Part shown: in pieces, positions 16,874-32,000 of the stretch | Position numbering within the stretch: position 1 is the stretch's first letter | Layout of the letters: each line of letters opens with the position of its first letter | Assembly: GCF_000007145.1 (NCBI RefSeq) | Contig: NC_003902.1 | Coordinates: 697,436 to 729,435, forward strand | Length of the DNA stretch: 32,000 nucleotides | Reading direction: 5' to 3' | Source: Xanthomonas campestris pv. campestris str. ATCC 33913 | GTDB taxonomy: Bacteria > Pseudomonadota > Gammaproteobacteria > Xanthomonadales > Xanthomonadaceae | Notes under the pieces: model-generated | What the model was told of the DNA's origin: nothing | Databases searched by the model: none | Seen by the model: only the letters and a program-made list of their open reading frames with translations | Made by a program: the position numbers and the translations under genes

Positions 16874-16982
16874 TGAGCCTCCACGGAAGGATTCACGGCG
16901 TGTCCCGCAAGCGGTGAGGGCACTGCGCCCTCGACCGACCAGGCGTTTTGCTCTGGACTTGTCACTGCATCCAGCAAGATGC

Positions 16983-17039
16983 GACCAACAAAACCACTGC
17001 GCTCACCGCCAGGCGGGCGCACGCTACATTTTGTTGGTC
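16983..17039 (-). terminator. Long-loop inverted repeat just downstream of the pilU stop (possible terminator)
   Basis: gaccaacaaaa (16983-16993) pairs with ttttgttggtc (17029-17039), a perfect 11-bp stem ending 4 nt from the pilU stop codon. The loop of about 35 nt contains further GC-rich self-complementarity. Confidence 0.4.
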
Positions 17040-17042
17040 GTT

Positions 17043-18176: not shown

Positions 18177-18274
18177 GCGCAATGGTTCCCCAACAAACAG
18201 CAGCGTCTCGTTGCAAGTCCGCCGCAGGCTTCCGACAATGGCCGTGCTCGAGACTTCTCGCTACGGCTCCCCTA

Positions 18275-18658
18275 ATGACGGCTAGCTTCGCATACTTGCG
18301 GCGATCCCTGTATGGCATCGCCTGTTTCATGGTTCTCTCCGCTCCCGCCGCCGCCCAGGTGGCGCCGGAGCTCACTGCCGCCGAACAGGCCGTGCAACGC
18401 GCCACCCAGGCCGATGCCGACCAATACGCCCCTGATCTGGTCAATCTGGCCCGCCAGGAACTGATGCAGGCCCAGCAGGCGCAACTGGACAAGCGCCAGC
18501 GCAAGCAGGTACCACAGATCGCCCTGCGCGCCGCTGCCGATGCCGACCTGGCCAAGGCGCGCAGCGAAGAGGCGGTGGTCAGCGCCCAGCTGGAGCAACG
18601 CCGCAAGGAAGTGGCGCAACTGCAGAACAGCCTCAACACCGGGGAGGGCGGCCGATGA
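18275..18658 (+). CDS. DUF4398-like secreted/periplasmic helical protein
   Basis: ATG at 18275 gives MTASFAYLRRSLYGIACFMVLSAPAAAQ (signal peptide). This is followed by an Ala/Gln-rich helical region (AEQAVQRATQADADQYAPDLVNLARQEL) typical of DUF4398. Its stop overlaps the next start (ATGA). Confidence 0.7.
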   Translation: MTASFAYLRRSLYGIACFMVLSAPAAAQVAPELTAAEQAVQRATQADADQYAPDLVNLARQELMQAQQAQLDKRQRKQVPQIALRAAADADLAKARSEEAVVSAQLEQRRKEVAQLQNSLNTGEGGR

Positions 18659-19545: not shown

Positions 19546-19829
19546 GCCAAGTGGTTGAAGTTAAGGTCTTTTAACCGGCGGATGACGCCCGGTTGAACCG
19601 CGGTCACTGATTGACGCGGGGAACGGCAAAAGCAGCCGTTTCGGCCTTGAACGCCCCCCGCGACCGGCGTAGGGTCGTACCTCCAGGCAGCAACTCCGCC
19701 GCCTGGAAAGTACGGAGGGCCGGGCCAGTGACGCAGAGGCACGCAGTGACGCAATACGGTGGAATGGTTGGTGGTGGTTCCGCCCATGTGTCGGCCTTTG
19801 CAACGCGTTGGTCTTCCATCCCCAAGCTG

Positions 19830-19866
19830 CGCCCCGTGCCTTCGCTGGCCGGGGCGTTCTTGTTTT
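19830..19866 (+). terminator. Intrinsic terminator about 20 nt upstream of the DUF465 start codon
   Basis: cgccccg (19830-19836) pairs with cggggcg (19850-19856), with extra gcc/ggc pairs inside the loop. The tail gttcttgtttt follows. The RBS gaaggagg begins at 19871. Confidence 0.7.
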
Positions 19867-19885
19867 AAGTGAAGGAGGTAACGCC

Positions 19886-20104
19886 ATGTTCGAAGGGCAA
19901 CCGCAGACCGAAATCGACGCATTGATGAAGTCCGATCCCGAGTTCAAGCAGCTCTACCAACGGCACAAGCTCTTGAACAAGAAATGCATGGATGCCGAAC
20001 TCGGGGTGCTCCCGATCGACGACGTGACCTTAGGCCAGATGAAACGCGAGAAATTGCAGGCCAAAGAGAAACTCACCCGGATGTACGACCAACTCACGCA
20101 CTGA
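19886..20104 (+). CDS. DUF465 (YdcH-like) small protein
   Basis: Strong RBS gaaggaggtaacgccATG. 72 aa: MFEGQPQTEIDALMKSDPEFKQLYQRHKLLNKKCMDAE...REKLQAKEKL matches the DUF465 pattern. The track ORF 19808..20104 starts upstream, inside the terminator. Confidence 0.85.
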   Translation: MFEGQPQTEIDALMKSDPEFKQLYQRHKLLNKKCMDAELGVLPIDDVTLGQMKREKLQAKEKLTRMYDQLTH

Positions 20105-20137
20105 TCCTCTCCCACTGCTAAGAACAAGTTCACCGTC

Positions 20138-20190
20138 GCGGGCGGTGGCGGCCTCCTCGTCGGCTTGCCACCGTCCGCGTCGCCTTTTCT
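20138..20190 (+). terminator. Probable terminator of the DUF465 gene
   Basis: gcgggcggtggc (20138-20149) pairs with gccaccgtccgc (20167-20178) at 11 of 12 positions, followed by gtcgccttttctgg. Confidence 0.5.
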
Positions 20191-20335
20191 GGCAGCCGCT
20201 CGTTGCAGGGCAGGGCGGCTGATGTACATCCGCGTTCATCGGCGCGCTCAATCGCTTCCTGCCTGAATGAGCATTCCCCGGCGGTTCGTCGGATAATGAC
20301 CGGTCTAGCCCGCGCGGCGCAGCGACGATATCCCG

Positions 20336-21706
20336 ATGGCGATCCATTCCTCCGTACTCGAACTGATTGGCAATACGCCGATCGTCAAGGCCCAGCGCCT
20401 GGACACCGGTGTCTGCGAACTGTTCCTCAAGCTGGAGGCATCCAATCCGGGCGGCTCGATCAAGGACCGTATCGGCTTGTCGATGATCGAAGCGGCCGAG
20501 CAGCGCGGCGACCTGAAGCCCGGCGCCACCCTGGTGGAAGGCACGGCCGGCAACACCGGTCTTGGCCTGGCGCTGGTCGCGCAGCAGAAGGGCTACCGCC
20601 TGATCCTGGTGGTGCCGGACAAGATGAGCCGCGAGAAGATCTTCAATCTCAAGGCGATGGGCGCTGATGTGGTGCTGACCCGCTCGGACGTGGCCAAGGG
20701 GCACCCGGAGTATTACCAGGACCTGGCCGCCAAGATCGCCTCGGAGACCCCGGGCGCCTACTTCATCAACCAGTTCGGCAACCCGGACAACCCGGCCGCG
20801 CATGAGTTCGGTACCGGGCCGGAAATCCTGGCGCAGATGGATGGCCAGCTGGACGCGATCGTGTTCGGCTGCGGCAGCTCAGGCACCATGACCGGCCTGT
20901 CGCGCGCCTTCGCCACCGCTTCGCCGCAGACCGAACTGGTGCTGGCAGACCCGGTGGGCTCGATCCTCACCCAGTACATCGAAGAGGGTACGGTGAGCGA
21001 GAAGTCCGGCAGCTGGCTGGTCGAAGGCATCGGTGAGGATTTCCTGCCGGATATCTCCGATTTCTCGCGGGTCAAGAAAGCCTATTCGATCAGCGATGCG
21101 GAAAGCTTCCACACCGCGCGCGAGCTGCTGGCCAAGGAGGGCATCCTCGGCGGCTCGTCCACCGGCACGCTGCTGGCCGCAGCGCTGAAGTACTGCCGCG
21201 AGCAGACCACGCCCAAGCGCGTGCTGGTGTTCGTCTGCGATACCGGCAACAAGTACCTGTCGAAGATGTACAACGACTATTGGATGCTGGACAACGGCTT
21301 CCTGGAGCGCGAACAGCACGGCGACCTGCGTGACCTGATCCTGCGCCCGTACAACAAGCGCGACACCGTGGTGGTCGGGCCGAAAGATCTGCTGACTACC
21401 GCCTACCAGCGCATGAAGCTCTACGACGTCTCGCAGTTGCCGGTGATCGATAATGGCGAGCTGGTCGGCATCGTCGATGAGAGCGATGTGCTGCTGCATG
21501 TGTATGGCGACGAAGCACGGTTCCGCGACCCGATCTCCACTGCAATGGTCAGCAAGCTCGACCGTCTGGACGTGGCCTCGCCGATCGAAGCGCTGCTGCC
21601 GGTGTTCGATCGCGGCCAGGTCGCCATCGTCATGGACGGCAACCAGTTCCTGGGCCTGATCACCCGTATCGACCTGCTCAACTACCTGCGCCGCCGCGTG
21701 CAGTAA
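20336..21706 (+). CDS. Cystathionine beta-synthase (PLP domain plus C-terminal CBS-domain pair)
   Basis: 456 aa. Contains NPGGSIKDRIG (PLP lysine), EGTAGNTG and GSSGT. The C-terminal roughly 120 aa contain two CBS motifs (VSQLPVIDNGELVGIVDESDV, GQVAIVMDGNQFLGLITRIDL). Confidence 0.93.
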   Translation: MAIHSSVLELIGNTPIVKAQRLDTGVCELFLKLEASNPGGSIKDRIGLSMIEAAEQRGDLKPGATLVEGTAGNTGLGLALVAQQKGYRLILVVPDKMSREKIFNLKAMGADVVLTRSDVAKGHPEYYQDLAAKIASETPGAYFINQFGNPDNPAAHEFGTGPEILAQMDGQLDAIVFGCGSSGTMTGLSRAFATASPQTELVLADPVGSILTQYIEEGTVSEKSGSWLVEGIGEDFLPDISDFSRVKKAYSISDAESFHTARELLAKEGILGGSSTGTLLAAALKYCREQTTPKRVLVFVCDTGNKYLSKMYNDYWMLDNGFLEREQHGDLRDLILRPYNKRDTVVVGPKDLLTTAYQRMKLYDVSQLPVIDNGELVGIVDESDVLLHVYGDEARFRDPISTAMVSKLDRLDVASPIEALLPVFDRGQVAIVMDGNQFLGLITRIDLLNYLRRRVQ

Positions 21707-21799
21707 TGCGTGCCGCCGCCGTGCGTGCTCGCATGAGACGCACGGCATGGGCCATTCAGGCCTGCTTGCTACAATCCGCCACTTTTTCCGGGAACCTCC

Positions 21800-22999
21800 A
21801 TGTCCAACCGCACCGCAAACAGCCACGATGGCGAGCGCGCGCTGTCGCTCGCAACGCTGGCGATCCATGGTGGACAGTCGCCGGACCCCAGCACCGGGGC
21901 GGTGATGCCGCCGATCTACGCGACGTCCACCTATGCGCAGTCCAGCCCGGGCGAGCATCAGGGCTTTGAGTACTCGCGGACCCACAACCCTACGCGTTTT
22001 GCCTATGAGCGCTGTGTTGCCGTGCTGGAAGGCGGCACCCGCGGGTTTGCCTTCGCCTCCGGCATGGCCGCGACCTCCACAGTGATGGAGTTGTTGGACG
22101 CCGGCAGCCACGTGGTAGCGACCGATGACCTGTACGGCGGCTCGTTCCGTCTGTTCGAGCGTGTGCGTCGCCGCACCGCCGGCCTGGACTTCAGTTTCGT
22201 CGACCTGACCGACCCGGCCGCGTTCGAGGCCGCGATCCGCCCGACCACCAAGATGGTCTGGATCGAAACCCCGACCAACCCGATGCTCAAGCTGGTCGAC
22301 ATCGCCGCCATTGCGGCGATCGCGCGTAGGCACGGCCTGCTGGTGGTGGTGGACAACACCTTCGCCTCGCCGATGCTGCAGCGCCCGCTGGAATTGGGCG
22401 CCGACCTGGTGGTGCATTCGGCCACCAAGTACCTCAATGGCCACTCGGACATGGTGGGCGGCATCGCCGTGGTCGGCGACAACGCCGAACTCGCCGAACA
22501 GATGGCCTTCCTGCAGAACTCGATCGGCGGCGTACAAGGCCCGTTCGACAGCTTCCTGGCCCTGCGCGGGCTCAAGACCCTGCCGCTGCGCATGCGCGCG
22601 CACTGCGAAAACGCCCTGGCGCTGGCGCAGTGGCTGGAGACCCACCAGGCGATCGAAAAAGTGATCTACCCCGGCTTGGCCTCGCACCCGCAGCACGCAC
22701 TCGCCAAGCAGCAGATGTCCGGCTTCGGCGGCATCGTCTCGATCGTCCTCAAGGGCGGCTTCGAGGCAGCCAAGCGTTTCTGCGAAAAGACCGAACTGTT
22801 CACCCTGGCCGAATCGTTGGGTGGTGTGGAAAGTTTGGTCAATCATCCCGCCGTCATGACCCATGCCTCGATCCCTGTGGCCCGCCGTGAACAGCTAGGC
22901 ATCAGCGATGCGCTGGTGCGGCTGAGTGTGGGGGTTGAGGATGTGGGGGATTTGCGGGGGGATTTGGAGCGTGCGCTTGAGGCGTCTCAGTCTCCATGA
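21800..22999 (+). CDS. metB: Cystathionine gamma-lyase/gamma-synthase family PLP enzyme
   Basis: 399 aa. It has the Cys/Met-metabolism PLP family signature DNTFASP...HSATKYLNGHSD (PLP lysine). Pairing with the upstream CBS suggests reverse transsulfuration. metB is the name used in the Xanthomonas literature for the gene flanking the LPS locus. Confidence 0.92.
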   Translation: MSNRTANSHDGERALSLATLAIHGGQSPDPSTGAVMPPIYATSTYAQSSPGEHQGFEYSRTHNPTRFAYERCVAVLEGGTRGFAFASGMAATSTVMELLDAGSHVVATDDLYGGSFRLFERVRRRTAGLDFSFVDLTDPAAFEAAIRPTTKMVWIETPTNPMLKLVDIAAIAAIARRHGLLVVVDNTFASPMLQRPLELGADLVVHSATKYLNGHSDMVGGIAVVGDNAELAEQMAFLQNSIGGVQGPFDSFLALRGLKTLPLRMRAHCENALALAQWLETHQAIEKVIYPGLASHPQHALAKQQMSGFGGIVSIVLKGGFEAAKRFCEKTELFTLAESLGGVESLVNHPAVMTHASIPVARREQLGISDALVRLSVGVEDVGDLRGDLERALEASQSP

Positions 23000-24381
23000 C
23001 AGATTCTTCGCAACGTCAGGGCATCGTCGCCTCCTGGCGGAATGGTCTGGCTGGACTGCATCTGCAGGCGTGGGTGCGTCGGCAGACATGGCTGCAGCGC
23101 TTCTACCGGATGTTTCCGACCAGCTTGCGCGGCAGGGTATCTGCCGCACTGTCCGCCCGCTCGGTCATTCAGACGCGTTTCCAGCGTACGTCGGCCTGGG
23201 AGCGTGCGGCCGGTGAGGCCCGTGCATCCCTGGATGCAGAGATGCAAAATGCTCCGCCAACTCCGACGCCTACGGCTGCGGCAGGAATCAATATTCTTGG
23301 CTACATCCGTGGAGAGTTCGGGCTGGCAGAAAGTGCCAGGATGTACGCTCGTGCGCTGATCAACGCGGGCGCCTCGGTGTCTCTGTATGACCTGGATATG
23401 GGGCTTCCCCACTCCTGGCGGGACCGCAGTATGGATGCCTTCATCGATCAGCGCATGCCGCATCGCGTCACCATCGTGTTCGTGAATCCTGACTATCTGG
23501 AGGCCGCCTTCGAACAAGTTGGTCGCGCCAGACTGGCTGGTCATTACGTGATTGCCTGCTGGTTCTGGGAGCTGGAAGTAATCCCGAGTACTTGGCTACG
23601 CGCCATTGAGCTTGTAGACGAGATCATGGTTGCGTCACAGTTCATTGAAAGCGCGTTTCGGCACGTGACGGATAAACCGATCATGCGAGTGCCTCTACCG
23701 GTATCGGACTTGCGGGACAGCGGTCTGCAGCGAGAGGACTTTGGCCTGCCGGCTGGCAAGTTCACCTTTCTTTTTAGCTTCGATTTCCATTCGGTTGCTG
23801 CCAGAAAAAATCCGCAAGCCGTGGTACACGCTTTTCAGCAAGCGTTTCCGAACAAGCGCGATGATGTGCACCTTGTGTTGAAGTCCAGTAACGGCCACAT
23901 GTATCCCGAACAGATGCGCGAACTTCTCGCGCTTGTGGTGGGAGATGCGCGTATCCAGCTTCGGGATGAGGTGATCGACAAAATGCATGTTCGTGCGCTT
24001 CAGCGTTGCTGCGATGTCTATGTCTCTCTGCATCGCGCCGAGGGCTTCGGTTTGGGTCTGGCCGAATGCATGTCGTTGGGCAAGCCCGTTATCGCAACCG
24101 GATGGTCGGGCAATATGGAATTCATGACCGAAAGTAACTCCGTGCTTGTCCCGTACGATCTGGTGCCTGTTGCTGGAAGATACCCCGAATCTGAGGGCGC
24201 GCAGTGGGCCGAGCCGAAAGTTGCAAGGGCAGCCGACGCCATGCGTCGCCTCGCGGATGACCCGGAATATGCGCGAGCCATTGGCGAGGCTGCAAGAAGA
24301 GACGTCGGTTTGAAGCTGGCTCCAGACAGGGCGGCCCAGGCTATTTTGTTCAGGACTGCGAATGTCTTAGCGGCAAGTTGA
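22996..24381 (+). CDS. GT-B fold glycosyltransferase (GT4-like), first gene of the O-antigen cassette
   Basis: 461 aa. The C-terminal half carries LHRAEGFGLGLAECMSLGKPVIAT (E-x7-E motif). The N-terminal domain begins near INILGYIRGEFGLAESAR. The ATG at 22996 overlaps the metB stop (ATGA). An alternative start at 23242 (MQNAPP...) cannot be excluded. Confidence 0.85.
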   Translation: MTDSSQRQGIVASWRNGLAGLHLQAWVRRQTWLQRFYRMFPTSLRGRVSAALSARSVIQTRFQRTSAWERAAGEARASLDAEMQNAPPTPTPTAAAGINILGYIRGEFGLAESARMYARALINAGASVSLYDLDMGLPHSWRDRSMDAFIDQRMPHRVTIVFVNPDYLEAAFEQVGRARLAGHYVIACWFWELEVIPSTWLRAIELVDEIMVASQFIESAFRHVTDKPIMRVPLPVSDLRDSGLQREDFGLPAGKFTFLFSFDFHSVAARKNPQAVVHAFQQAFPNKRDDVHLVLKSSNGHMYPEQMRELLALVVGDARIQLRDEVIDKMHVRALQRCCDVYVSLHRAEGFGLGLAECMSLGKPVIATGWSGNMEFMTESNSVLVPYDLVPVAGRYPESEGAQWAEPKVARAADAMRRLADDPEYARAIGEAARRDVGLKLAPDRAAQAILFRTANVLAAS

Positions 24382-24464
24382 GGCGCGGCTGCCATACCGT
24401 GTTCCTGATGTTGACGCCGGCCGCTTACCAAGTAGTGACTATTTCAGAGGTAGCAACGTTGGAC

Positions 24465-25250
24465 ATGATTCGGTCCGTATGGGCCTTCCGATACTTCATC
24501 CTCTCATCGATCAGGAATGATCTGCGCCTGCGCTTTTTGCGCAGCAAGCTCGGCGCCTTGTGGATGATCATTCATCCGCTCATGCAGGTGCTGATCTTTG
24601 CAACGATCCTCTCGGAGGTCCTGGCAGCAAAGTTGCCTGGTGTCAACAACAAGTTTGCTTACGCCCTCTACCTTATGGCGGGGACACTTTGCTGGAGCAT
24701 GTTTGCAGAATCTATCGGCAAATGCGCATCCTTGTTTGTGGATAACGGAAATCTGATGAAAAAGCAGGCGTTTCCACGGATATGCCTTCCGCTCATCGCG
24801 GGCGGGACCGTCATGGTGAATAACTTGCTGTTATTTTTAGCGATCATTGTTGTTTTCGCGATTTTGGGGCACTCCCTGGGACCCCAGGCAGGCTGGCTGC
24901 CGCTGCTGATGCTCCTGACGCTTGCGTTCGCGATGTCGATCGGTCTGCTGCTCGGGATTTTCAATGTCTTCGTGCGCGACATCGGGCAGGTTGTACCGGT
25001 CGTTCTGCAGGCAATGTTCTGGGTGACGCCAATCGTCTACACCATCGATATCCTTCCGCAGCAGACGCGGGATTTATTTAAGCTCAACCCGCTGTTCCCG
25101 CTCGTCAGCGCCTACCAGGGGGTGCTTCTTTACGGGCGTGCACCGGATTGGATGAGTCTGCTGCCTCTGACCGCCGCCACGGCCGTCCTGGGTTTTGTAT
25201 CGCTGGTCGTCTTTCGTCGCGCAAGTGCCGAAATGGTGGATGCGCTATGA
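24465..25250 (+). CDS. wzm: O-antigen/polysaccharide ABC transporter permease (ABC-2 type)
   Basis: MIRSVWAFRYFILSSIRNDLRLRFLRSKLGALWMIIHPLMQVLIF is a typical Wzm N-terminus, followed by about 6 hydrophobic spans. Alternative starts are the ATG at 24408 and the TTG at 24378, so the start is uncertain. Its stop overlaps the wzt start (ATGA). Confidence 0.85.
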   Translation: MIRSVWAFRYFILSSIRNDLRLRFLRSKLGALWMIIHPLMQVLIFATILSEVLAAKLPGVNNKFAYALYLMAGTLCWSMFAESIGKCASLFVDNGNLMKKQAFPRICLPLIAGGTVMVNNLLLFLAIIVVFAILGHSLGPQAGWLPLLMLLTLAFAMSIGLLLGIFNVFVRDIGQVVPVVLQAMFWVTPIVYTIDILPQQTRDLFKLNPLFPLVSAYQGVLLYGRAPDWMSLLPLTAATAVLGFVSLVVFRRASAEMVDAL

Positions 25251-26533
25251 GCGCTATGCTGACGGTCGAGGGATTGGGAAAGTCCTATCGTGTTTGGGGT
25301 AGCGAGTGGCTGCGTGCGGCCAGCTGGTTTGGTCTGAAGGTCAAGCCGCGGGAGGAGCATTGGGTGCTGCGCAACGTCGGCTTTTCGGTCACTGCTGGTG
25401 AGTCGATTGGAATCATGGGGCGAAATGGCGCTGGCAAGAGTACGCTGCTCAAGCTGATCACGGGGACATCGCAGCCCACTGAAGGGCGTATCGTCCGGCG
25501 CGGGCGCATTGCTGCGATCCTCGAGCTCGGGATGGGGTTCAACCCGGACCTGAGTGGACGAGAAAATGCCCGTCACTCGGCCGGGCTCATGGGCTACACG
25601 CTGGACCAGATTGAGGCCGTACTGCCGGAAATTCAGGAGTTTGCTGAGATCGGAGATTACTTCGATGAGCCGGTGCGCACTTACTCCAGCGGCATGCAGG
25701 TACGCGTGGCATTCGCGGTCGCTACCGCATTCCGGCCCGATGTGCTGATCGTCGATGAAGCATTATCGGTCGGAGATGTGTATTTTCAGGCAAAATGTTT
25801 CAAGCGTATTCTGTCCTTCAAGGAAAAGGGCATGACGCTGATTCTTGTGAGTCACTCCGTAGGGGACGTCGTCAAGCATTGCGACCGGGCTATATTAATT
25901 AAGGATGGCGGCGTCTATGCCGATGGTCCGTCCCGGGAGGTATCCAACCTCTATCTGGACGAGCTGTTTGGCAAGAAACCCGCGTCGCTTCAAGCCGAGG
26001 CCAAGGATACCCCGAAGGATCTACGCGCCGGCACGGAAGACTTGTTTCATACCCGGCCTTACTACAACGCTGGCGAGCACCGCTGGGGTCAGGGGGGCGC
26101 AAGGATTTTGGATTACGTGGTTGTCAGTGACGGCCAGGAATTCCCAGCACGCGTGGAAAGTGGCTCAAGGACGGCGTTCTACGTCAAGATCGCATTCGAC
26201 CAGGATTTCGATAGCGTGGTCCCCGGCATTCTGGTGAAAACGCTTGAGGGATTATTCCTCTACGGTACCAATTCCTTTCTTTCCAGCGAGGGCCGTACCG
26301 GAATCGCGGCCAAAGCCGGCGACGTCATCGTCTGCAAGTTTACGATGCCTCTTGACCTCAATGAAGCCAATTATCTGATCTCGCTCGGCATCTCCAGCGG
26401 CGATCCGCTGGTGGAATTGACACCGCTGGATCGGCGCTACGATGCCATCGTGCTGAACGTGGCCCGAGGCATGCAGTTCTGGGGGATGATGGATCTGAAG
26501 GCCGATTTCGAAATCGTGGAGGCCTTGTCATGA
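25247..26533 (+). CDS. wzt: O-antigen ABC transporter ATP-binding protein with C-terminal glycan-binding-type extension
   Basis: ATG at 25247 (MSAMLTVEGLGKSY...). Contains Walker A GRNGAGKST, signature YSSGMQVR and Walker B LIVDEALS. About 165 extra C-terminal residues (RWGQGGARILDYVVV...DFEIVEAL) are laid out like the Wzt_C beta-sandwich. Confidence 0.92.
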   Translation: MSAMLTVEGLGKSYRVWGSEWLRAASWFGLKVKPREEHWVLRNVGFSVTAGESIGIMGRNGAGKSTLLKLITGTSQPTEGRIVRRGRIAAILELGMGFNPDLSGRENARHSAGLMGYTLDQIEAVLPEIQEFAEIGDYFDEPVRTYSSGMQVRVAFAVATAFRPDVLIVDEALSVGDVYFQAKCFKRILSFKEKGMTLILVSHSVGDVVKHCDRAILIKDGGVYADGPSREVSNLYLDELFGKKPASLQAEAKDTPKDLRAGTEDLFHTRPYYNAGEHRWGQGGARILDYVVVSDGQEFPARVESGSRTAFYVKIAFDQDFDSVVPGILVKTLEGLFLYGTNSFLSSEGRTGIAAKAGDVIVCKFTMPLDLNEANYLISLGISSGDPLVELTPLDRRYDAIVLNVARGMQFWGMMDLKADFEIVEALS

Positions 26534-26573
26534 AGGCGCCAGCAATTCACCTCAACGCAGAGAGCGAACAGCC

Positions 26574-28868
26574 ATGATCGAGTCACTGAATATAGGGGCG
26601 CTTGTGGCAGCCCTGCCAGAGAAGTACCAGCCGATCTTTGCGCATCCGGAGCTGTCCGACGGCAGCTCGCGTGGGTGCGAGGACAGGCTTGTGCTGATCC
26701 GCCAATGCGCGCAGCGCCTGCAGCATGCGCTTGGCCGCCCGCTGCGTGTGCTCGACCTTGGCTGTGCCCAGGGGTTTTTCTCTCTGAACCTTGCAGCCGA
26801 TGGTCACACGGTACACGGCGTGGATTTTCTCGATCTCAACGTCAATGTGTGCAAGGCGCTGGCTGCCGAGAACCCTGCATGTGCAGCTACCTTTGAGCAC
26901 GGCACGGTGGAAGATGTGATAGATCGCCTTGAGCACGATGAGTGCGACCTGGTCCTCGGCCTGAGCGTCTTCCATCATCTAATTCACGACAAAGGCATCC
27001 TGAAGGTATCCGCGCTGTGTCGGAAGCTTTCAGAAACGACCAGCGCGGGCATTTATGAGCTCGCCCTGCGTGAGGAGCCGCTCTACTGGGCGCCATCGTT
27101 GTCGCAGGACCCGGCCGAGTTGCTATCCAGTTATGCATTTTTGCGCCTGCTTTCACAGCAGCAGACACATCTTTCGGCGGTTTCAAGGCCACTATATTTT
27201 GCCAGTAGCCGTTTCTGGTACGTGGATGGAGCCATTGGTAATTTTACGTCTTGGTCATCCGAGTCACATGCGCATGGCCGCGGCACGCATCTGCAATCGC
27301 GCCGTTATTATTTCAGCGAACAGTCGTTCGTAAAGAAAATGACGCTGGGCGTGGGAGATCGCGCAGAGATCAATTTGCAGGAGTTCGTCAATGAGGTGGA
27401 GTTTCTGGGCAATCCACCGGAGAGCTACCCGGCACCGCGCCTGATCGCATCGCTGAACGATTCCAGGGATCTGTTCATTGCAAGGTCCATGATGAATGGA
27501 CGGCTTCTCTCCCAGGCGATCGATGATGGGGCCGCTTATGATGCTGATGAAATAATTGCACAGATTCTTGCGCAACTTGTTTTGCTTGAGCGTGCTGGTC
27601 TGTACCACAACGACGTGCGCTGCTGGAATATCCTTATCGCGCCTGAAGGGCGTGCTGTATTGATCGACTATGGCGCAATATCGGCCAATCCATTCGATTG
27701 CTCATGGCTCGACGATCTTCTGCTTTCCTTCCTGATCACGGTCAAGGAGATTCTTGAGCGCAAGGTTGTTCCCTCCAGTCCGAGCCGGGAGCCCGCTCTG
27801 GATTTCATGACGCTGCCCGCGCGTTATCGCAATGCGTTCATCGGGTTTTTTGGTCAGAATCGGTCCCCGTTGACATTCGCCTTGCTGCAACAGTGTCTTC
27901 AGCAGGCAGATGCGACCCCTCACTCTGCCCCCGAGTGGGTGACCATCTATCAGCGCCTGCAGAAAGCACTGCTCGGCTATAATGCGCGGCTTAGTGCTGT
28001 GCATATTGAGACAGAGCATCATCGGGTGGAGCTTGCCGCGCGCGGGGCGGCAATTGAGCATCTTCGCGATAGTACATTGCAAGACCAAGAGCGCACTCAG
28101 GCGTTTGAGCAGGGGGTTGCCGCTGCCGAGGAAAGGTACAAGCGCCTCGAGGAGGAGAGCGAGAAGCTGGCGGCGTGGGCGAAAGGACTTGAAGCTCAGA
28201 CTATCGAGTCCAACCGTGACAAAGAAGCGCTTGCCGCGCTCAATGCAGAACTGGAATCAGACAAAGCTGCGCTCGCGACGCGAATTGCGTCACTTGGCCA
28301 GGAGCTGGAAGAGCGTCAGCGTGCGCGTGAGTTGGCCGAGTTGCTGGCTGCCGACGTGGGACGGCTGACCGAGGAGCGTGACGCTGCCAGGTCCGATCTC
28401 CTCGACACCCAAAGCGTCGTTGAGCAGCACCAGGCGACGATTACAGCGCTGGAGGCGCGTGTCGCCGTTCAGCAGCAACAGATCAGTGGCCTTGAGAGTT
28501 CGCGCGATCAGGAAAGAAATAGGTTGAGGGAGTTGCAGGTGGATCTCTCGCGTAGCATGGACGGTACTGCAAGTGCGCGTGAGTACATTCGTGAGCTTGA
28601 GATGGCGGTGGATGCTCTGGAGGGACAGATCAACAGCCTCCACGGAAGTCGGTCCTGGCGCGTTACGGCACCTCTGCGTCTGTTCACCACACGGGTACTG
28701 AAGCGTGGCAATGCTGACGCTGCGACCATCCGCAAGGTTTCAGACGCGCGCCTTGAAAGTCCTGTCCATACGGATGGTGTGACACCTACACCGGCAGAGG
28801 CTGCGATGGACGAACGCTTAGCTGCAGTCGATCAATTGGGTAGCCGGATTCGTAAGTCGCTTAAATAA
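26574..28868 (+). CDS. wbdD: WbdD-like bifunctional methyltransferase/kinase with long coiled coil (O-antigen chain terminator; wxcB-type in X. campestris nomenclature)
   Basis: 764 aa. LPEKYQPIFAHPE and GRPLRVLDLGCAQGFFSLNLAADG (SAM-binding motif) parallel the E. coli O9a WbdD N-terminus as I recall it. The kinase-like motifs are LYHNDVRCWNILI and LIDYG. Residues of about 480-690 are heptad-rich (E/L/A/Q/R). SRSWRVTAP follows, as in WbdD (SRSWRMT). Confidence 0.9.
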   Translation: MIESLNIGALVAALPEKYQPIFAHPELSDGSSRGCEDRLVLIRQCAQRLQHALGRPLRVLDLGCAQGFFSLNLAADGHTVHGVDFLDLNVNVCKALAAENPACAATFEHGTVEDVIDRLEHDECDLVLGLSVFHHLIHDKGILKVSALCRKLSETTSAGIYELALREEPLYWAPSLSQDPAELLSSYAFLRLLSQQQTHLSAVSRPLYFASSRFWYVDGAIGNFTSWSSESHAHGRGTHLQSRRYYFSEQSFVKKMTLGVGDRAEINLQEFVNEVEFLGNPPESYPAPRLIASLNDSRDLFIARSMMNGRLLSQAIDDGAAYDADEIIAQILAQLVLLERAGLYHNDVRCWNILIAPEGRAVLIDYGAISANPFDCSWLDDLLLSFLITVKEILERKVVPSSPSREPALDFMTLPARYRNAFIGFFGQNRSPLTFALLQQCLQQADATPHSAPEWVTIYQRLQKALLGYNARLSAVHIETEHHRVELAARGAAIEHLRDSTLQDQERTQAFEQGVAAAEERYKRLEEESEKLAAWAKGLEAQTIESNRDKEALAALNAELESDKAALATRIASLGQELEERQRARELAELLAADVGRLTEERDAARSDLLDTQSVVEQHQATITALEARVAVQQQQISGLESSRDQERNRLRELQVDLSRSMDGTASAREYIRELEMAVDALEGQINSLHGSRSWRVTAPLRLFTTRVLKRGNADAATIRKVSDARLESPVHTDGVTPTPAEAAMDERLAAVDQLGSRIRKSLK

Positions 28869-28902
28869 TCCGGGTAGAGGGAATCGTTGTGGTAAGGACA
28901 TC

Positions 28903-29982
28903 ATGCAAGAGGTTGTGGCCGTGAAGAGAGTCATTGTTCTGGGTGCGCAGGTACCGTTTGTCAGAGGAGGAGCAGAGTTCCTGAATGAAGAACTTGTCCG
29001 CCAGATCAATCTGTGGGGAAAAAAACGCCAGGTTGTCGCGGAATTGGTACAGCTGCCTTATCGGTGGTATCCGGAAACGGAAATCCTCTCGTCCACGCTT
29101 GCGTGGAGGCTACTGGATCTAAATGAGAGCAACGGGCAGAAGATCGACCTATGCATCTGTACCAAGTTTCCGACGTATGCTGCTTCGCATGCGAACAAGA
29201 CGCTTTGGCTCGTTCATCAGCACAGGGTTCTTTATGATCTGGAGCGGACGCGTTTTGATTTTCCTCATTTGACCTCCCAGGACAGCGCGCTGCGCGATTC
29301 ATTGCGTGCTTCGGATACGCAATTGTTGTCGGACATCGAGTCGCGCTACACCATATCGCAGACCGTTACCGACCGACTTCAACGGTTCAACGGCCTGTCG
29401 TCGCAGGTTCTATACCCTCCATCTAAGCTGGCGCCTTTCATTACATCTGGTGATTACGGCGACTACGTCTTGTGCATCGGCAGACTAGAGTCGATGAAAC
29501 GACCCGACCTGCTCATCCGTGCAGCGGCGCATGCTCCAAAGGCTAGGGTCGTGATTGCGGGAACGGGCGCGAGTGATTACGCACTCTCCCTGGCGCCGTT
29601 GGTACGCGAGCTCGGTCTGGAGGATCGGGTAGAGCTGACGGGCTTTGTCGAGGATGAGAAACTGCTAGCGCTGATCGCTAACTGTAGAGCGGTTTTCTAC
29701 TCTCCCGTGGATGAAGATTACGGGTTTGCGACCTTGGAGGCATTTGCGGCGCATAAGCCAGTCATTACTGTCGACGACAGTGGCGAAGTGGCGAGAATTG
29801 TGGAGGCCACGGGAGGGGGGTGGATCAGCGGCCCGACGGCAGAGGAGATAGCGCAGAGCATTGGGGATTGCTACGCACGAACCGATGCGCAATTACGCGC
29901 GCTTGCCGACGGCGGATACCGGCTGAGTACTTCGATTACGTGGGATCTTGTGATACGCAATCTTGTGGAGGGCAAGATTTGA
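28903..29982 (+). CDS. GT-B fold glycosyltransferase (GT4-like)
   Basis: 359 aa. VIVLGAQVPFVRGGAEF is the N-terminal Rossmann strand with a glycine-rich loop. The C-terminal domain carries VDEDYGFATLEAFAAHKPVI (E-x7-E). Confidence 0.88.
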   Translation: MQEVVAVKRVIVLGAQVPFVRGGAEFLNEELVRQINLWGKKRQVVAELVQLPYRWYPETEILSSTLAWRLLDLNESNGQKIDLCICTKFPTYAASHANKTLWLVHQHRVLYDLERTRFDFPHLTSQDSALRDSLRASDTQLLSDIESRYTISQTVTDRLQRFNGLSSQVLYPPSKLAPFITSGDYGDYVLCIGRLESMKRPDLLIRAAAHAPKARVVIAGTGASDYALSLAPLVRELGLEDRVELTGFVEDEKLLALIANCRAVFYSPVDEDYGFATLEAFAAHKPVITVDDSGEVARIVEATGGGWISGPTAEEIAQSIGDCYARTDAQLRALADGGYRLSTSITWDLVIRNLVEGKI

Positions 29983-31745
29983 ACACGCGCTTCCGAATTG
30001 CCATGGTCGGGCCATTGCCTCCTGAGCATTCCGGTATCGCCGAGTATTCGGCCGGGCTGGTGGAACTGCTGCGCGATCGGGGCGTACAGGTCCACACCGT
30101 CGTGCGCGGTGACGTCGAGCGCATGGGCATGCAGCAGGTGATCGATGAGCTTGGGCAAGCGGATGCGATCGTGTACCAGATGGGAAATCATCCCGCCTTC
30201 CACGGTTGGATGCTTCCACTTATGGCACAGGTGCCCGGCATTGTTCATCTGCATGATCTAGTGCTGCACCATATGGTTGCGGGTGTTCTGAGCGACGAAG
30301 GTCTTCTCAGCGATGGATACGCGCGGGTGCTGGAGCAATGGCACTCCGCTGCGGATGTGAAGAACGCAACGCTTGCACTGCGATACGGCACTCCGATCTG
30401 GGGACGTGACGAAGTCGTGCACTACCCACTTCACCAGGTGGCGACGAAGTTGGCGCTTGAGGTGGTCGTGCATTCCAGGTACGCGGCTGAGAGAGTTGCA
30501 AAAGAGTTTCCGTGGCTGCCTGTTACGGTCATTCCGCAGCTCTATCCTGTCGCCGCGCGGCATCGTGTGCGTGATTGCCTCAATACCATTGCGGTGATGG
30601 GGGGAGGGCAAGCGAATCGCAGGTTCGACTGGATCGTTGAGGCCTTATTGCAGATCGACCCCGTGTTGACTCGCCCGCTTACCCTCGAAATAGCTGGAGA
30701 TGTCGAACCTGCGGTACAGCTTCAGCTTGAACGAATTTCGGGTTTGCAGAACGTGCGATTGGTCAATCACGGCCGCATCGACGACGAGCAATTCCGGGAT
30801 ATGTTCGCGCGCGCCGACCTGATGATCGCGCTTCGTCAGCCGACGATGGGCGAAGCATCCGCAGTGGTGTCCAAGGCGTTGCAGGCGGGCCTGCCTGTGG
30901 TGGTGTCGGATCAGGCATGGTATGCGGAACTGCCGTCCTGTGTGAGGAAATTGCCCCCCACCCCCGAATGTCCCGATGTTCTGGGGAGTCTGTTGCAGCG
31001 GCTTGCGCTCGATTCAACGGCCTATTCGTATTGGGCAGAGGAATGTAAGGATCAGGCCGGCCGCCCCGAGCTAGATCCATACGCCGCCACTGATCGCTAT
31101 GTCAGGCTACTCAAATCCAACCGTGTGTTCTCTGCGTTTAGAGATCGCGTGGCCAATGCATTGGCCAGCCTCAGGATTGACTTGGAATCCCCGGCGGCTC
31201 GGGAAGTGCAGCGAATCGATGTCCGCGCGTCTCTACGAGGGGATCGTTGGGTCGATTCTGCGCTGGCAGCACTGGCTGAGCGAGGGCTCGATTCTTATGG
31301 ACGAATGATCTCCGCTAGGGTCAGCCCGTACCCTCATACGCAAGCCCTGCCGCCAGATGCCTGGCAGGGCAGTGCTGCATTGCTCAACACTCATCTGGGC
31401 GTGGTGCAGCCATCAAGCATGCTGACCGTGCGCCTGGTGTTGACCAATGACAGCAAGGTTCAGTGGCTGAGTCCATCGAACCACTCTGTAATGCCGTTTG
31501 GCATATATATTGGTTACTTCTGGCACTCCAGCAATGTCCCGCTGGCACCCGAACAGCCGCGCCAGTGGCTTGAAGAGGTAATTGAGCCGGCATCGTCCGG
31601 CGAGCAGCTTATAACACTTCAAGCGCCAGACGCGCCGGGCGATTATGTCCTGGAGGTCGACCTTGTCCAGGAATCAGTTTCTTGGTTCAAAAGTCGGGGG
31701 TTTGTACCCGCCCGGCTACTCGTACGCGTAGAAGCTCCCCAGTAA
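29979..31745 (+). CDS. Glycosyltransferase (GT4-like N-terminal about 370 aa) fused to an uncharacterised C-terminal region of about 200 aa
   Basis: A TTG at 29979 overlaps the preceding stop (TTGA) and gives MNTRFRIAMVGPLPPEHSGIAEYS. An ATG at 30003 would truncate the first beta-strand. The C-terminal part (...MLTVRLVLTNDSKVQW...GDYVLEVDLVQESVSWF...) alternates hydrophobic and polar residues like a beta-sandwich. Confidence 0.82.
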   Translation: MNTRFRIAMVGPLPPEHSGIAEYSAGLVELLRDRGVQVHTVVRGDVERMGMQQVIDELGQADAIVYQMGNHPAFHGWMLPLMAQVPGIVHLHDLVLHHMVAGVLSDEGLLSDGYARVLEQWHSAADVKNATLALRYGTPIWGRDEVVHYPLHQVATKLALEVVVHSRYAAERVAKEFPWLPVTVIPQLYPVAARHRVRDCLNTIAVMGGGQANRRFDWIVEALLQIDPVLTRPLTLEIAGDVEPAVQLQLERISGLQNVRLVNHGRIDDEQFRDMFARADLMIALRQPTMGEASAVVSKALQAGLPVVVSDQAWYAELPSCVRKLPPTPECPDVLGSLLQRLALDSTAYSYWAEECKDQAGRPELDPYAATDRYVRLLKSNRVFSAFRDRVANALASLRIDLESPAAREVQRIDVRASLRGDRWVDSALAALAERGLDSYGRMISARVSPYPHTQALPPDAWQGSAALLNTHLGVVQPSSMLTVRLVLTNDSKVQWLSPSNHSVMPFGIYIGYFWHSSNVPLAPEQPRQWLEEVIEPASSGEQLITLQAPDAPGDYVLEVDLVQESVSWFKSRGFVPARLLVRVEAPQ

Positions 31746-31780
31746 TGCGGGTCACATTCATCCAAACCAGGTCCACGTCC

Positions 31781-32000
31781 ATGAAAATTTTTATGAAATT
31801 CCCCCTCTCTTCGGCCACTGTCGTCGCGCTTGCAACTGCGATTACTTTTACCGGCTGTTCCGAGTCGCCAGATGTAGGTCAGGCCGCGAGCGCCGCGCCG
31901 CAAAAGGCTGCATCTGCATCCGATGCGCCCGGCATGAGCATGCCCCTGACGCAAGAGCAGGTGGGGGCGCGGTACGCCATCGTTTCAGATCCGGTCATTG
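31781..32000 (+). CDS. Putative lipoprotein, N-terminal fragment (runs off the right edge)
   Basis: Not in the ORF track because it has no stop in the window. ATG at 31781 (or 31793): MKIFMKFPLSSATVVALATAITFTGCSESPDVGQAASAAPQK... It shows a hydrophobic signal followed by a lipobox-like FTGC. The frame stays open to 32000. Confidence 0.5.
   Translation, partial: MKIFMKFPLSSATVVALATAITFTGCSESPDVGQAASAAPQKAASASDAPGMSMPLTQEQVGARYAIVSDPVI

What the first reader, a model, noticed from the sequence alone, without database searches (positions are those of the whole stretch)
22996..32000. Lower-GC O-antigen cassette (ABC-transporter-dependent pathway) attached directly to the core metB gene
By eye, G+C falls from roughly two-thirds in the core genes to the mid-50s from about 23300 onward and stays low to the window edge. 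The genes there are GT, wzm, wzt, a wbdD-like gene, GT, GT-fusion and a lipoprotein. Almost all are coupled by 4-nt overlaps or gaps under 45 nt, which suggests one operon. No wzx or wzy is present, which fits an ABC-dependent route. The position next to metB is the known hypervariable LPS locus of Xanthomonas (between metB and etfA), where cassettes are exchanged horizontally. No nucleotide-sugar synthesis genes lie within the window, so the sugar composition cannot be read from here. The combination of three GTs and a capping enzyme may specify a strain-specific glycan.
Basis: partly seen in the sequence, partly recalled or inferred. Interest (0 to 1): 0.7.

Follow-up and report, generated by a model that had tools for sequence, protein, structure and literature searches.

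The report
Known Xanthomonas campestris wxc O-antigen cluster

Summary
G+C falls from 0.662 (1-22995) to 0.572 (22996-32000). GC3 falls from 0.84 to 0.61-0.71, and all six complete cassette genes are 5-9 SD off core codon usage. The gene list is correct: GT4, Wzm, Wzt, a WbdD-like protein, GT4, GT4 with an extra domain, and a lipoprotein.

The window is 99.95% identical to X. campestris pv. campestris 8004. The region is "region 1" of the published wxc cluster (wxcA, wzm, wzt, wxcB, wxcC, wxcD, wxcE). The GDP-D-rhamnose genes gmd and rmd begin about 460 nt past the window edge.

The cassette is variable. CBS-metB is conserved in all 80 related loci, but homology stops in the last 20-75 nt of metB in 76 of them. 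The gene sets that follow differ, even between genomes carrying the same species name.

The mechanism follows the E. coli O9a model. WxcB matches WbdD at E 7e-101 and keeps the catalytic and phosphate-methyltransferase residues. The Wzt C-terminal domain is 57% identical to the O9a cap-binding module.

Two side observations appear new. X. campestris WxcB alleles carry 1, 2 or 3 copies of a 35-residue coiled-coil unit, and WxcE is a beta-sandwich related to the WxcD C-terminus.

Novelty: already known. Interest is low.

The parts
21800..22999 (+). metB (cystathionine gamma-synthase/lyase family). This is the conserved left flank. Its last ~100 nt belong to the exchangeable segment.
   Evidence: Pfam Cys_Met_Meta_PP at 3.7e-154, and NCBIfam PRK07811 at 527 bits against a cutoff of 513. 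Homology to 76 loci with a different cassette ends at 22925-22981. In 22900-22999, identity is 84-91% to wxc-type loci and 67-79% to loci with other cassettes.
22996..24381 (+). wxcA, a 461-aa GT4-family glycosyltransferase with an N-terminal extension of about 95 aa. Its ATG overlaps the metB stop codon (ATGA).
   Evidence: Pfam Glyco_trans_1_4 and Glycos_transf_1 over residues 265-435. Sequence at the junction. Same gene call in strain 8004 and five other genomes. A wxcA mutant lacks O-antigen according to PMC12573098, which cites Vorholter 2001.
24459..25250 (+). wzm, the ABC-2 permease of the O-antigen exporter. The start codon is uncertain (24408, 24459 or 24465).
   Evidence: Pfam ABC2_membrane at 5.8e-25; the best NCBIfam hit is the Wzm/RfbD galactan permease. 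Alternative starts come from gene calls in six genomes. A GAGG lies 9 nt upstream of the TTG at 24459.
25247..26533 (+). wzt, the ABC ATPase with a C-terminal carbohydrate-binding domain (residues ~263-422).
   Evidence: Pfam ABC_tran plus Wzt_C at 9.8e-29. The nucleotide-binding domain matches Aquifex Wzt (8dku, 7k2t) at E 1e-60. The C-terminal domain matches the E. coli O9a Wzt domain 2r5o at E 6e-63, with 91 of 159 residues identical (57%).
26574..28868 (+). wxcB, a 764-aa WbdD-type chain terminator. It contains a methyltransferase (about residues 6-210), a kinase (about 211-459), a coiled coil (about 460-700) and a conserved SRSWRVTAPLR motif near the C-terminus.
   Evidence: Match to WbdD (4uw0, 4azs) at E 7e-101 over residues 6-447, 40% identity. 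WbdD residues R36, D82, H132, H133, R203, D351 and W355 are conserved as R38, D84, H134, H135, R205, D347 and W351. Heptad (3.5-residue) hydrophobic periodicity has z = 3.8 in residues 460-700 only.
28245..28349 (+). One copy of a 35-residue (five-heptad) coiled-coil unit inside wxcB. Other X. campestris alleles carry it 2 or 3 times.
   Evidence: The blastn alignment to L004 overlaps itself at 28245-28354. The protein alignment shows a 35-aa duplication. Alleles of 764, 799 and 834 aa carry the AELESDKAAL motif 1, 2 and 3 times.
28903..29982 (+). wxcC, a 359-aa GT4 glycosyltransferase.
   Evidence: Pfam Glycos_transf_1 at 3.2e-23. PDB sequence hits are to GT4 enzymes only.
30003..31745 (+). 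wxcD, 580 aa (588 aa if started at 29979). It has a GT-B/GT4 catalytic module (residues 1-~355), a helical linker (359-445) and a C-terminal beta-sandwich (456-576, nt 31368-31730).
   Evidence: Pfam GT4 hits cover residues 19-315. The AF2 model has mean pLDDT 86.4. Foldseek finds only GT-B retaining glycosyltransferases such as GlgM, BshA, WaaG and PimA. The C-terminal domain aligns with the WxcE family at hhalign E 7e-5, probability 63%.
31781..32000 (+). wxcE, 5' part only (73 of 199 codons). It encodes a predicted outer-membrane lipoprotein with an Ig-like beta-sandwich domain.
   Evidence: The full gene is present in L001/L003. The Cys of the lipobox is invariant in 33 homologues. The AF2 model has pLDDT above 90 for residues 61-211. 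Foldseek returns only generic beta-sandwich matches.

Best explanation
Region 22996-32000 is 'region 1' of the wxc lipopolysaccharide O-antigen cluster of Xanthomonas campestris pv. campestris, in its 8004/ATCC 33913 form. It encodes an ABC-transporter-dependent pathway.

Proposed mechanism:
1. Three cytoplasmic GT4 glycosyltransferases (WxcA, WxcC, WxcD) build a D-rhamnan backbone on undecaprenyl diphosphate. The donor is GDP-D-rhamnose, made by Gmd and Rmd, which are encoded just beyond the window.
2. WxcB stops growth by modifying the non-reducing end. WxcB is a trimer-type WbdD homologue whose catalytic head is held away from the membrane by a coiled coil of about 240 residues. The modification is probably phosphorylation followed by methylation of the phosphate.
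3. The C-terminal carbohydrate-binding domain of Wzt recognises that cap, and Wzm/Wzt export only finished chains.
4. Periplasmic side-branching and ligation use genes outside the window.

The block is a compositionally foreign, exchangeable cassette. Its left junction lies in the last ~100 nt of metB.

Shown here: the identity of the locus, the domain content, the conservation of catalytic residues, the composition shift and the locus variability. Taken from the literature: loss of O-antigen in wxcA and wxcB mutants, and the rhamnan/Fuc3NAc structure. Inferred: the methyl-phosphate cap, cap-dependent export, the ruler function of the coiled coil, and which glycosyltransferase makes which linkage.
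For: Identity of the locus:
- 13,098 nt of the window match strain 8004 (CP000050.1) with 6 mismatches. Gene order is identical to 8004 and to nine other X. campestris genomes.

Pathway type:
- ABC2_membrane, ABC_tran plus Wzt_C, three GT4 proteins, and no Wzx or Wzy.

Terminator:
- WxcB matches WbdD at E 7e-101 and 40% identity across both catalytic domains.
- The residues that PMC3482155 identifies as essential for phosphate methylation (H132, H133, R203), for SAM binding (R36, D82) and for kinase activity (D351) are all conserved.
- A coiled-coil signal is present in residues 460-700.
- Some database sources already name homologues 'O-antigen chain-terminating methyltransferase'.

Cap reader:
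- The Wzt C-terminal domain is 57% identical to the O9a cap-binding module 2r5o.

Sugar:
- gmd passes its NCBIfam equivalog cutoff, and rmd follows it.

Phenotypes from the literature:
- The wxcB mutant has no O-antigen on its LPS, yet about half the wild-type amount of rhamnose is still recovered. The authors suggest a chain that cannot be transferred (PMC4878081). E. coli O9a wbdD mutants make polymer but cannot export it (PMC3482155).
- In X. hortorum, Tn-seq insertions in every gene from the metB-equivalent (annotated metC there) to gmd give phage resistance (PMC12573098).

Foreign, exchangeable cassette:
- GC and codon shift.
- 76 of 80 related loci lose homology within the last 20-75 nt of metB.
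- Gene content differs between genomes labelled X. hortorum (L017 vs L019) and between X. arboricola pathovars (L018 vs L024).
- The published description of the metB-etfA locus and its horizontal transfer (PMC2238763; PMC13133917).
Against: - No terminal methyl-phosphate has been reported on the Xcc O-antigen in the papers I could read. Steffens 2016 calls WxcB function 'still obscure', and a wxcB mutant of X. euvesicatoria showed no LPS change on gels.
- The published wxcB mutant is a Tn5 insertion. Its loss of O-antigen could be a polar effect on wxcC, wxcD, wxcE, gmd and rmd.
- WbdD acceptor-contact residues Y230 and R270 are not conserved (H232 and I266), so the acceptor or the position modified may differ.
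- Cassette genes are less similar between species (65-84% nt) than the flanks (88-92%). The data therefore do not show a recent transfer. Old divergence maintained by selection fits equally well.
- The promoter and terminator scans are at chance level and neither prove nor disprove a single operon.
Confidence: 0.9

Rival explanations
1. The low G+C and odd codon usage do not mark horizontal acquisition. On this view the wxc cassette is an old resident allele class of the locus. It is kept distinct by diversifying or balancing selection, or by selection for low expression, and passed on mostly vertically with occasional homologous replacement.
For: Between species, wxc-type cassette genes are more diverged (65-84% nt) than the flanking CBS/metB genes (88-92%). 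This is the opposite of what a recent transfer would give. A G+C lower than the flank by more than 0.03 is seen downstream of metB in 46 of 78 related loci, so low G+C is a general property of whatever sits there.
Against: Genomes carrying the same species name hold unrelated cassettes (L017 vs L019, L018 vs L024). The same wxc type turns up in a Stenotrophomonas MAG (L086). The last 100 nt of metB co-vary with cassette type, which marks a recombination junction. Patil 2007 reports that the B100 cassette is almost 100% identical to that of X. campestris pv. armoraciae but only 69% identical to 8004.
Confidence: 0.25
2. WxcB is not a chain terminator read by Wzt. Instead it is needed only as a scaffold, or as a kinase or methyltransferase acting on another substrate, and chain length is set in another way, for example by side-branching.
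For: Steffens 2016 found longer rhamnan chains in the branchless wxcK and wxcN mutants and proposed that the branches influence chain length. The same paper calls WxcB function obscure and cites an X. euvesicatoria wxcB mutant with unchanged LPS. Two WbdD acceptor-contact residues differ in WxcB.
Against: All tested catalytic residues of both WbdD domains are conserved. The partner Wzt carries a domain 57% identical to the O9a cap reader. Coiled-coil length changes favour multiples of 7, with remainders of 3 or 4 also common. This is expected if a continuous coiled coil must be preserved.
Confidence: 0.15
3. The cluster makes a surface glycan other than the LPS O-antigen, such as a capsule, an exopolysaccharide or a protein-linked glycan.
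For: Wzm/Wzt-type exporters and GT4 enzymes also occur in capsule, teichoic-acid and S-layer glycan systems. The NCBIfam hits to TagH and KpsM show the family resemblance.
Against: Published mutants in wxcA and wxcB lose the O-antigen specifically. The Wzt_C plus WbdD pairing is the O-antigen arrangement. No KpsE/KpsD-type or capsule-export genes are present.
Confidence: 0.03

Closest known systems
wxc cluster of Xanthomonas campestris pv. campestris (Vorholter et al. 2001; compared across strains in Patil 2007, PMC2238763, and in PMC13133917)
   Same: It is the same locus. It shows 99.95% nt identity to strain 8004 and the same genes in the same order (wxcA, wzm, wzt, wxcB, wxcC, wxcD, wxcE, then gmd and rmd). 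It has the same position after metB and the same G+C of about 57-58%.
   Different: There is no material difference. The window stops inside wxcE, so regions 2 and 3 (gmd, rmd, wxcK-O) and etfA lie outside it. Six mismatches to 8004 mean the window comes from 8004 itself with minor differences, or from a very close relative.
E. coli O9a polymannose O-antigen system (WbdA/B/C, WbdD, Wzm, Wzt)
   Same: Both use an ABC-transporter-dependent route. Both have a bifunctional methyltransferase-kinase terminator with a C-terminal coiled coil (E 7e-101, catalytic residues conserved). Both have a Wzt with a C-terminal binding module (57% identical). Both show loss of surface O-antigen when the terminator is mutated.
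   Different: The polymer is D-rhamnan (6-deoxy-mannan) with Fuc3NAc branches, not polymannose. The glycosyltransferases are not detectably orthologous to WbdA/B/C; the PDB sequence search returned only generic GT4 similarity, and no WbdA/B/C sequence was compared. WxcD carries a beta-sandwich domain and WxcE is an extra lipoprotein, and neither was recognised as an O9a-type component. The cap chemistry in Xanthomonas has not been demonstrated.
Pseudomonas aeruginosa common polysaccharide antigen (A-band D-rhamnan: gmd, rmd, wzm, wzt, wbpX/Y/Z)
   Same: From general knowledge of that system, it also has a GDP-D-rhamnose supply from gmd and rmd, a Wzm/Wzt exporter, three GT4-family rhamnosyltransferases and a D-rhamnan product.
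   Different: I did not compare sequences with WbpX/Y/Z, so orthology is untested. The CPA core cluster has no WbdD-type kinase-methyltransferase with a coiled coil encoded between wzt and the glycosyltransferases.
Other cassettes at the Lysobacteraceae metB locus (X. axonopodis, X. oryzae BXO8, Stenotrophomonas types)
   Same: They occupy the same chromosomal slot after CBS-metB. Nearly all carry a wzm/wzt pair, usually at reduced G+C.
   Different: Their Wzm and Wzt proteins are only 22-31% and 31-51% identical to those of the window. They begin directly with wzm and lack WxcA, WxcB, WxcC, WxcD and WxcE.

Membership tests
ABC-transporter-dependent O-antigen pathway | Wzm-type ABC-2 permease and Wzt-type ATPase encoded together | tested here: met
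   ABC2_membrane at 5.8e-25 and ABC_tran at 4.5e-23. The two genes overlap by 4 nt.
ABC-transporter-dependent O-antigen pathway | No Wzx flippase or Wzy polymerase in the cluster | tested here: met
   No such Pfam family was found in any window protein or in the called genes to the right in L001-L010. The 730/750-aa WxcO has no family hit, so a distant Wzy-like role for it is not formally excluded.
ABC-transporter-dependent O-antigen pathway | Loss of LPS O-antigen when the cluster genes are mutated | not testable with these tools
   Literature only: wxcB (PMC4878081) and wxcA (PMC12573098 citing Vorholter 2001).
O9a-type terminator-coupled export (WbdD + Wzt carbohydrate-binding module) | Bifunctional methyltransferase-kinase with intact active sites | tested here: met
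   E 7e-101 to 4uw0. R36, D82, H132, H133, R203, D351 and W355 are conserved (residue roles from PMC3482155).
O9a-type terminator-coupled export (WbdD + Wzt carbohydrate-binding module) | Long C-terminal coiled coil followed by a membrane-proximal region | tested here: met
   Heptad periodicity has z = 3.8 in residues 460-700, with no proline-rich breaks. The SRSWRxTAPLR motif is conserved after the coiled coil. No dedicated coiled-coil predictor was available.
O9a-type terminator-coupled export (WbdD + Wzt carbohydrate-binding module) | Wzt carries a C-terminal module homologous to the O9a cap-binding domain | tested here: met
   Wzt_C at 9.8e-29. Match to 2r5o at E 6e-63, 57% identity over 159 residues.
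O9a-type terminator-coupled export (WbdD + Wzt carbohydrate-binding module) | Methyl-phosphate on the non-reducing terminal sugar, required for export | not testable with these tools
   This needs chemistry. It is not reported for Xcc in the papers read.
O9a-type terminator-coupled export (WbdD + Wzt carbohydrate-binding module) | Polymannose product made by WbdA/B/C | tested here: not met
   gmd and rmd sit next to the cluster, and the published structure is a rhamnan. The glycosyltransferases show only generic GT4 similarity; no WbdA/B/C sequence was compared. The system therefore works like O9a but is not the O9a system.
Xanthomonas metB-etfA hypervariable LPS locus | Starts immediately after metB | tested here: met
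   The wxcA ATG overlaps the metB stop codon.
Xanthomonas metB-etfA hypervariable LPS locus | Ends at etfA | not tested
   The 10-kb flanks ended in wxcK or wxcL. This feature rests on PMC2238763.
Xanthomonas metB-etfA hypervariable LPS locus | Gene content differs among related genomes while the flank is conserved | tested here: met
   In the 80 loci, MetB is 78-96% identical. A full wxc set is present in only 5 loci, and the others carry different sets. In 76 of the 80, homology ends at 22925-22981.
Xanthomonas metB-etfA hypervariable LPS locus | Atypical base composition | tested here: met
   G+C 0.572 against 0.662, and GC3 0.61-0.71 against 0.84.

The most novel reading that the evidence does not exclude
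The coiled coil of WxcB may be a naturally tunable molecular ruler. X. campestris alleles that are otherwise 95-100% identical carry 1, 2 or 3 tandem copies of a 35-residue (five-heptad) unit, giving proteins of 764, 799 and 834 aa.

Across close relatives, the spacer between the kinase catalytic loop and the membrane-proximal motif takes 18 distinct lengths. Seven of the 17 non-reference lengths differ from the reference by exact multiples of 7, and 14 of 17 by 7n, 7n+3 or 7n+4.

If WxcB works like WbdD, these alleles set different modal O-antigen chain lengths. That would add a second, quantitative axis of surface variation on top of cassette exchange. The same reading predicts an as yet unreported methyl-phosphate cap on the Xcc D-rhamnan.
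Probability: 0.45. Interest if true: 0.4.

Novelty: already known. Interest (0 to 1): 0.15.

Why it matters
The O-antigen made by this cluster is a phage receptor, a shield against plant immune recognition and a competitor with xanthan synthesis for precursors. The locus therefore matters for black-rot biology and for industrial strains. All of this is established, and the finding adds no new system.

The value of this check is threefold:
- It confirms that a tool-free reading of raw sequence was accurate.
- It pins the left recombination junction to the last ~100 nt of metB.
- It gives two cheap, testable leads: repeat-number alleles of the WxcB ruler with the predicted cap, and the relationship between the WxcE and WxcD beta-sandwiches.

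Tried and rejected
- Extending to etfA: two look-ups with 10-kb flanks ended in wxcK or wxcL, partly because IS elements lengthen the 8004-type locus. etfA was not reached.
Within-species comparison therefore rests on loci L001-L010 and on the literature.
- A search for a JUMPStart/ops element (GGCGGTAG) found nothing on the + strand upstream of the cassette.
- Promoter-like and terminator-like sites in 19500-32000 are at the level of shuffled sequence (4 vs 4.3, and 10 vs 9.0). They neither support nor refute a single operon.
- No tRNA gene or Rfam family lies anywhere in the window, so there is no tRNA-linked island signature.
- Tandem Repeats Finder saw no repeat in wxcB, which is correct because the window allele has a single copy of the 35-aa unit.
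- PDB sequence searches for WxcA, WxcC and WxcD gave only generic GT4 matches, so linkage specificity cannot be assigned.
- Foldseek on the WxcE model gave only generic beta-sandwich matches at E of about 1e-3, so no function can be inferred.
- The Pfam N_BRCA1_IG hit to the WxcD C-terminus (E 0.16) is below threshold and is not used as evidence.
- I considered whether the core-like G+C of the first 240 nt of wxcA means the gene starts later. I rejected this because homologues in other genera cover 92-97% of WxcA.

Full report

Yes. G+C is 0.662 over 1-22995 and 0.572 over 22996-32000. The 31 overlapping 1-kb windows inside the cassette span 0.539-0.592 and the 88 overlapping core windows span 0.606-0.736, so the ranges do not overlap. 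A single change-point fit puts the switch at 23233.

Third-position G+C is 0.84 +/- 0.03 in 15 core genes of the window and 0.61-0.71 in the six complete cassette genes (Mann-Whitney p = 3.7e-5). Under the core synonymous-codon model every cassette gene lies 5.1-9.2 SD below the core genes.

| Gene | Coordinates | Hits |
|---|---|---|
| wxcA | 22996-24381 | GT4 |
| wzm | to 25250 | ABC-2 permease |
| wzt | 25247-26533 | ABC ATPase with Wzt_C |
| wxcB | 26574-28868 | methyltransferase, kinase-like, coiled coil |
| wxcC | 28903-29982 | GT4 |
| wxcD | 30003-31745 | GT4 with a long C-terminal extension |
| wxcE | from 31781 | signal peptide with lipobox, cut by the window end |

Gene spacing is tight. 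metB/wxcA and wzm/wzt each overlap by 4 nt, and the other gaps are 20-40 nt. The exception is wxcA-wzm, where the claimed overlap needs a TTG at 24378. Gene callers in six genomes use 24408, 24459 or 24465 instead.

**2. What is it?**

An exact-protein look-up of the GT at 28903-29982 found it in many Xanthomonas campestris genomes. Window 18903-32000 aligns to strain 8004 (CP000050.1) with 6 mismatches in 13,098 nt.

The region is therefore 'region 1' of the published wxc O-antigen cluster: wxcA, wzm, wzt, wxcB, wxcC, wxcD, wxcE.

The fetched flanks show what follows the window:
- the rest of wxcE (199 aa);
- gmd, which passes the NCBIfam equivalog cutoff (462 bits against 415);
- rmd;
- IS elements in 8004-type strains;
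- on the opposite strand, wxcO, wxcN (GtrA-like), wxcM (FdtA + hexapeptide), wxcL (GT2) and wxcK (DegT aminotransferase).

They begin about 460 nt beyond it and point to GDP-D-rhamnose. The literature describes the product as a rhamnan main chain with N-acetylfucosamine branches (PMC4878081).

The upstream 20 kb holds ordinary housekeeping genes at core composition. These include a PLP enzyme, an M3 oligopeptidase, FabA, DinB, a HAD phosphatase, BioD, QueD-like PTPS, a DEAD-box helicase, FAA hydrolase, GST, a PilT-like ATPase, DUF465, CBS and MetB. There is no tRNA gene and no Rfam match.

**3. Is the locus variable and foreign?**

I fetched 80 loci around MetB homologues, drawn from a collection that holds one genome per species across Lysobacteraceae.

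- CBS and MetB are present and 78-98% identical wherever the contig extends that far.
- A wzm/wzt pair follows metB in most loci.
- The full wxc gene set occurs in only five loci: X. nasturtii, X. populi, X. arboricola pv. guizotiae, X. hortorum FPH2013-1 and one Stenotrophomonas MAG.
- Other genomes carry unrelated sets whose Wzm and Wzt are 22-31% and 31-51% identical. These include ones labelled X. hortorum (NBC5721) and X. arboricola (pv. juglandis).

Nucleotide homology between the window and 76 of the 80 loci stops at 22925-22981, inside the last 20-75 nt of metB. In 22900-22999 the window is 84-91% identical to wxc-type loci and only 67-79% identical to the others. Further upstream the two groups do not differ. 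The left recombination junction therefore sits in the 3' end of metB, and the last few MetB codons travel with the cassette.

G+C is lower than the flank by more than 0.03 in 46 of 78 loci.

One caution applies. Between species the wxc genes are more diverged (65-84% nt) than CBS/metB (88-92%). My data therefore show exchange and long-standing divergence, not a recent transfer.

Published work reached the same picture:
- All sequenced xanthomonads have an LPS locus between metB and etfA.
- The Xcc locus has about 58% G+C.
- Strain B100 differs sharply from 8004/ATCC 33913 except at the two ends (PMC2238763).
- A 66-strain study calls wxc hypervariable, with WxcB, WxcD and WxcE the most divergent region-1 proteins (PMC13133917).

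I did not reach etfA by sequence.

**4. How does it most likely work?**

WxcB matches the solved E. coli O9a chain terminator WbdD at E 7e-101 over residues 6-447, with 40% identity. Hagelueken 2012 names the key WbdD residues (PMC3482155):
- R36 and D82 as SAM contacts;
- H132, H133 and R203 as essential for methylating a phosphate rather than a sugar hydroxyl;
- D351 as the residue whose loss kills the kinase.

All of these are conserved in WxcB, as R38, D84, H134, H135, R205 and D347. Two acceptor contacts differ: Y230 becomes H, and R270 becomes I.

Residues 460-700 of WxcB show heptad-type hydrophobic periodicity (z = 3.8 against shuffles; no signal elsewhere in the protein). They are followed by a conserved SRSWRVTAPLR motif.

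The C-terminal domain of Wzt is 57% identical (E 6e-63) to the O9a Wzt domain 2r5o. In the O9a system that domain reads the terminal cap, so that only finished chains are exported.

D-rhamnose is 6-deoxy-D-mannose (general chemistry), so a shared cap and a shared reader are chemically plausible.

The published wxcB::Tn5 mutant has no O-antigen on its LPS, yet about half the wild-type amount of rhamnose is still recovered. The authors suggest a chain that cannot be transferred. O9a wbdD mutants behave in the same way.

What is shown is homology, intact active sites and the domain pairing. What is inferred is the methyl-phosphate cap, cap-gated export and the ruler function. Polarity of the Tn5 insertion and the unchanged LPS of an X. 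euvesicatoria wxcB mutant are real caveats.

**5. The glycosyltransferases and WxcE.**

WxcA and WxcC give only GT4 matches.

WxcD was modelled with 44 homologues (mean pLDDT 86). The model has a GT-B module (residues 1-~355), a long helix and low-confidence linker (359-445), and a beta-sandwich (456-576). Foldseek finds only retaining GT-B enzymes. It is one glycosyltransferase fused to a non-catalytic domain.

WxcE belongs to a small family of about 35 clusters. Those that carry a source name are from Xanthomonas or Stenotrophomonas, and none has a Pfam domain. The lipobox cysteine is invariant. The model is a confident beta-sandwich (pLDDT above 90 for residues 61-211) with only generic structural neighbours.

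Its domain aligns to the WxcD C-terminal domain. The profile-profile comparison gives E 7e-5, probability 63%, over 118 columns, and both share the motif LVQESVxWF. This is suggestive but not proven. NCBI names WxcE homologues 'glycosyltransferase', and nothing here supports that name.

**6. A side observation that may be new.**

X. campestris WxcB alleles that are otherwise 95-100% identical are 764, 799 or 834 aa long. They carry the 35-residue unit AELESDKAALATRIASLGQELEERQRA... once, twice or three times. The window has one copy, at 28245-28349.

Across 74 close full-length homologues, the spacer from the kinase catalytic loop to the SWRxTxPLR motif takes 18 distinct lengths. Of the 17 that differ from the window allele:
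- 7 differ by exact multiples of 7 (binomial p = 0.006);
- 14 differ by 7n, 7n+3 or 7n+4 (p = 0.001), which are the increments a coiled coil tolerates.

These lengths are not phylogenetically independent, so the p-values are indicative only.

In WbdD, inserting or deleting coiled-coil segments lengthens or shortens the O-antigen (PMC5082667, summarising Hagelueken 2015). I found no paper in the held library describing this natural variation in Xanthomonas.

**7. Verdict.**

The object is a textbook, experimentally studied locus, so its novelty is 'already known' and its interest is low. The only leads worth follow-up are the WxcB repeat-number alleles with the predicted cap, and the WxcE/WxcD beta-sandwich relationship.

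Noticed in passing
window 28245-28349 (wxcB); proteins P0111, P0108, P0107: X. campestris WxcB alleles carry 1, 2 or 3 tandem copies of a 35-residue (five-heptad) coiled-coil unit, giving proteins of 764, 799 and 834 aa. Family-wide, spacer lengths favour multiples of 7. This may be a natural 'ruler' polymorphism for O-antigen chain length.
   Followed up: partly
window 31781-32000 and L001:12879-13478 (wxcE); window 31368-31730 (wxcD C-terminus): WxcE is a lineage-restricted lipoprotein with a confident Ig-like beta-sandwich model. Database sources name its homologues 'glycosyltransferase', which neither its fold nor its size supports. Its domain appears related to the C-terminal domain of WxcD (hhalign E 7e-5, shared motif LVQESVxWF).
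   Followed up: partly
window 22650-22999 (3' end of metB): GC3 of the last 100 metB codons drops to 0.72, against 0.835 for the whole gene. The last ~100 nt co-vary with cassette type. A published Tn-seq screen in X. hortorum found insertions in the metB-equivalent (annotated metC there) as phage-resistant as wxc insertions, which suggests read-through transcription from metB into wxcA.
   Followed up: partly
L001:16232-17753, L002:15856-17769, L009:15465-16567: IS/transposase genes lie between rmd and wxcO in some X. campestris genomes and differ in number and orientation between them. The same region 1 is paired with either a 730-aa or a 750-aa WxcO-position protein (L001 vs L003), so the cluster is mosaic.
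   Followed up: no
L023 (titled Nocardiopsis yanglingensis) and L055 (titled Bacillus subtilis): Two records named as Gram-positive species carry a Stenotrophomonas-like CBS-metB-wzm-wzt locus, with MetB 87-90% identical to the window. They are probably contaminated or mislabelled assemblies.
   Followed up: no
window 24378-24465: The wzm start codon is ambiguous. Four candidate starts (TTG 24378, ATG 24408, TTG 24459, ATG 24465) are used by different annotations. A GAGG lies 9 nt before 24459.
   Followed up: partly
window 18655-19545 (+), 5768-7039 (+) and 16533-18020 (+): The ORF at 18655-19545 has core-like GC3 (0.87) but no Pfam match and is called as a gene in related genomes. The other two long ORFs gave no Pfam hit and may be spurious frames opposite real genes (for example the PilT-like gene at 17043-18182 on the minus strand).
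   Followed up: no
window 12001-13000: There is a local G+C dip to 0.606 in otherwise core sequence, around the PTPS/QueD-like gene (12578-12976, minus strand) and the intergenic region upstream of it.
   Followed up: no
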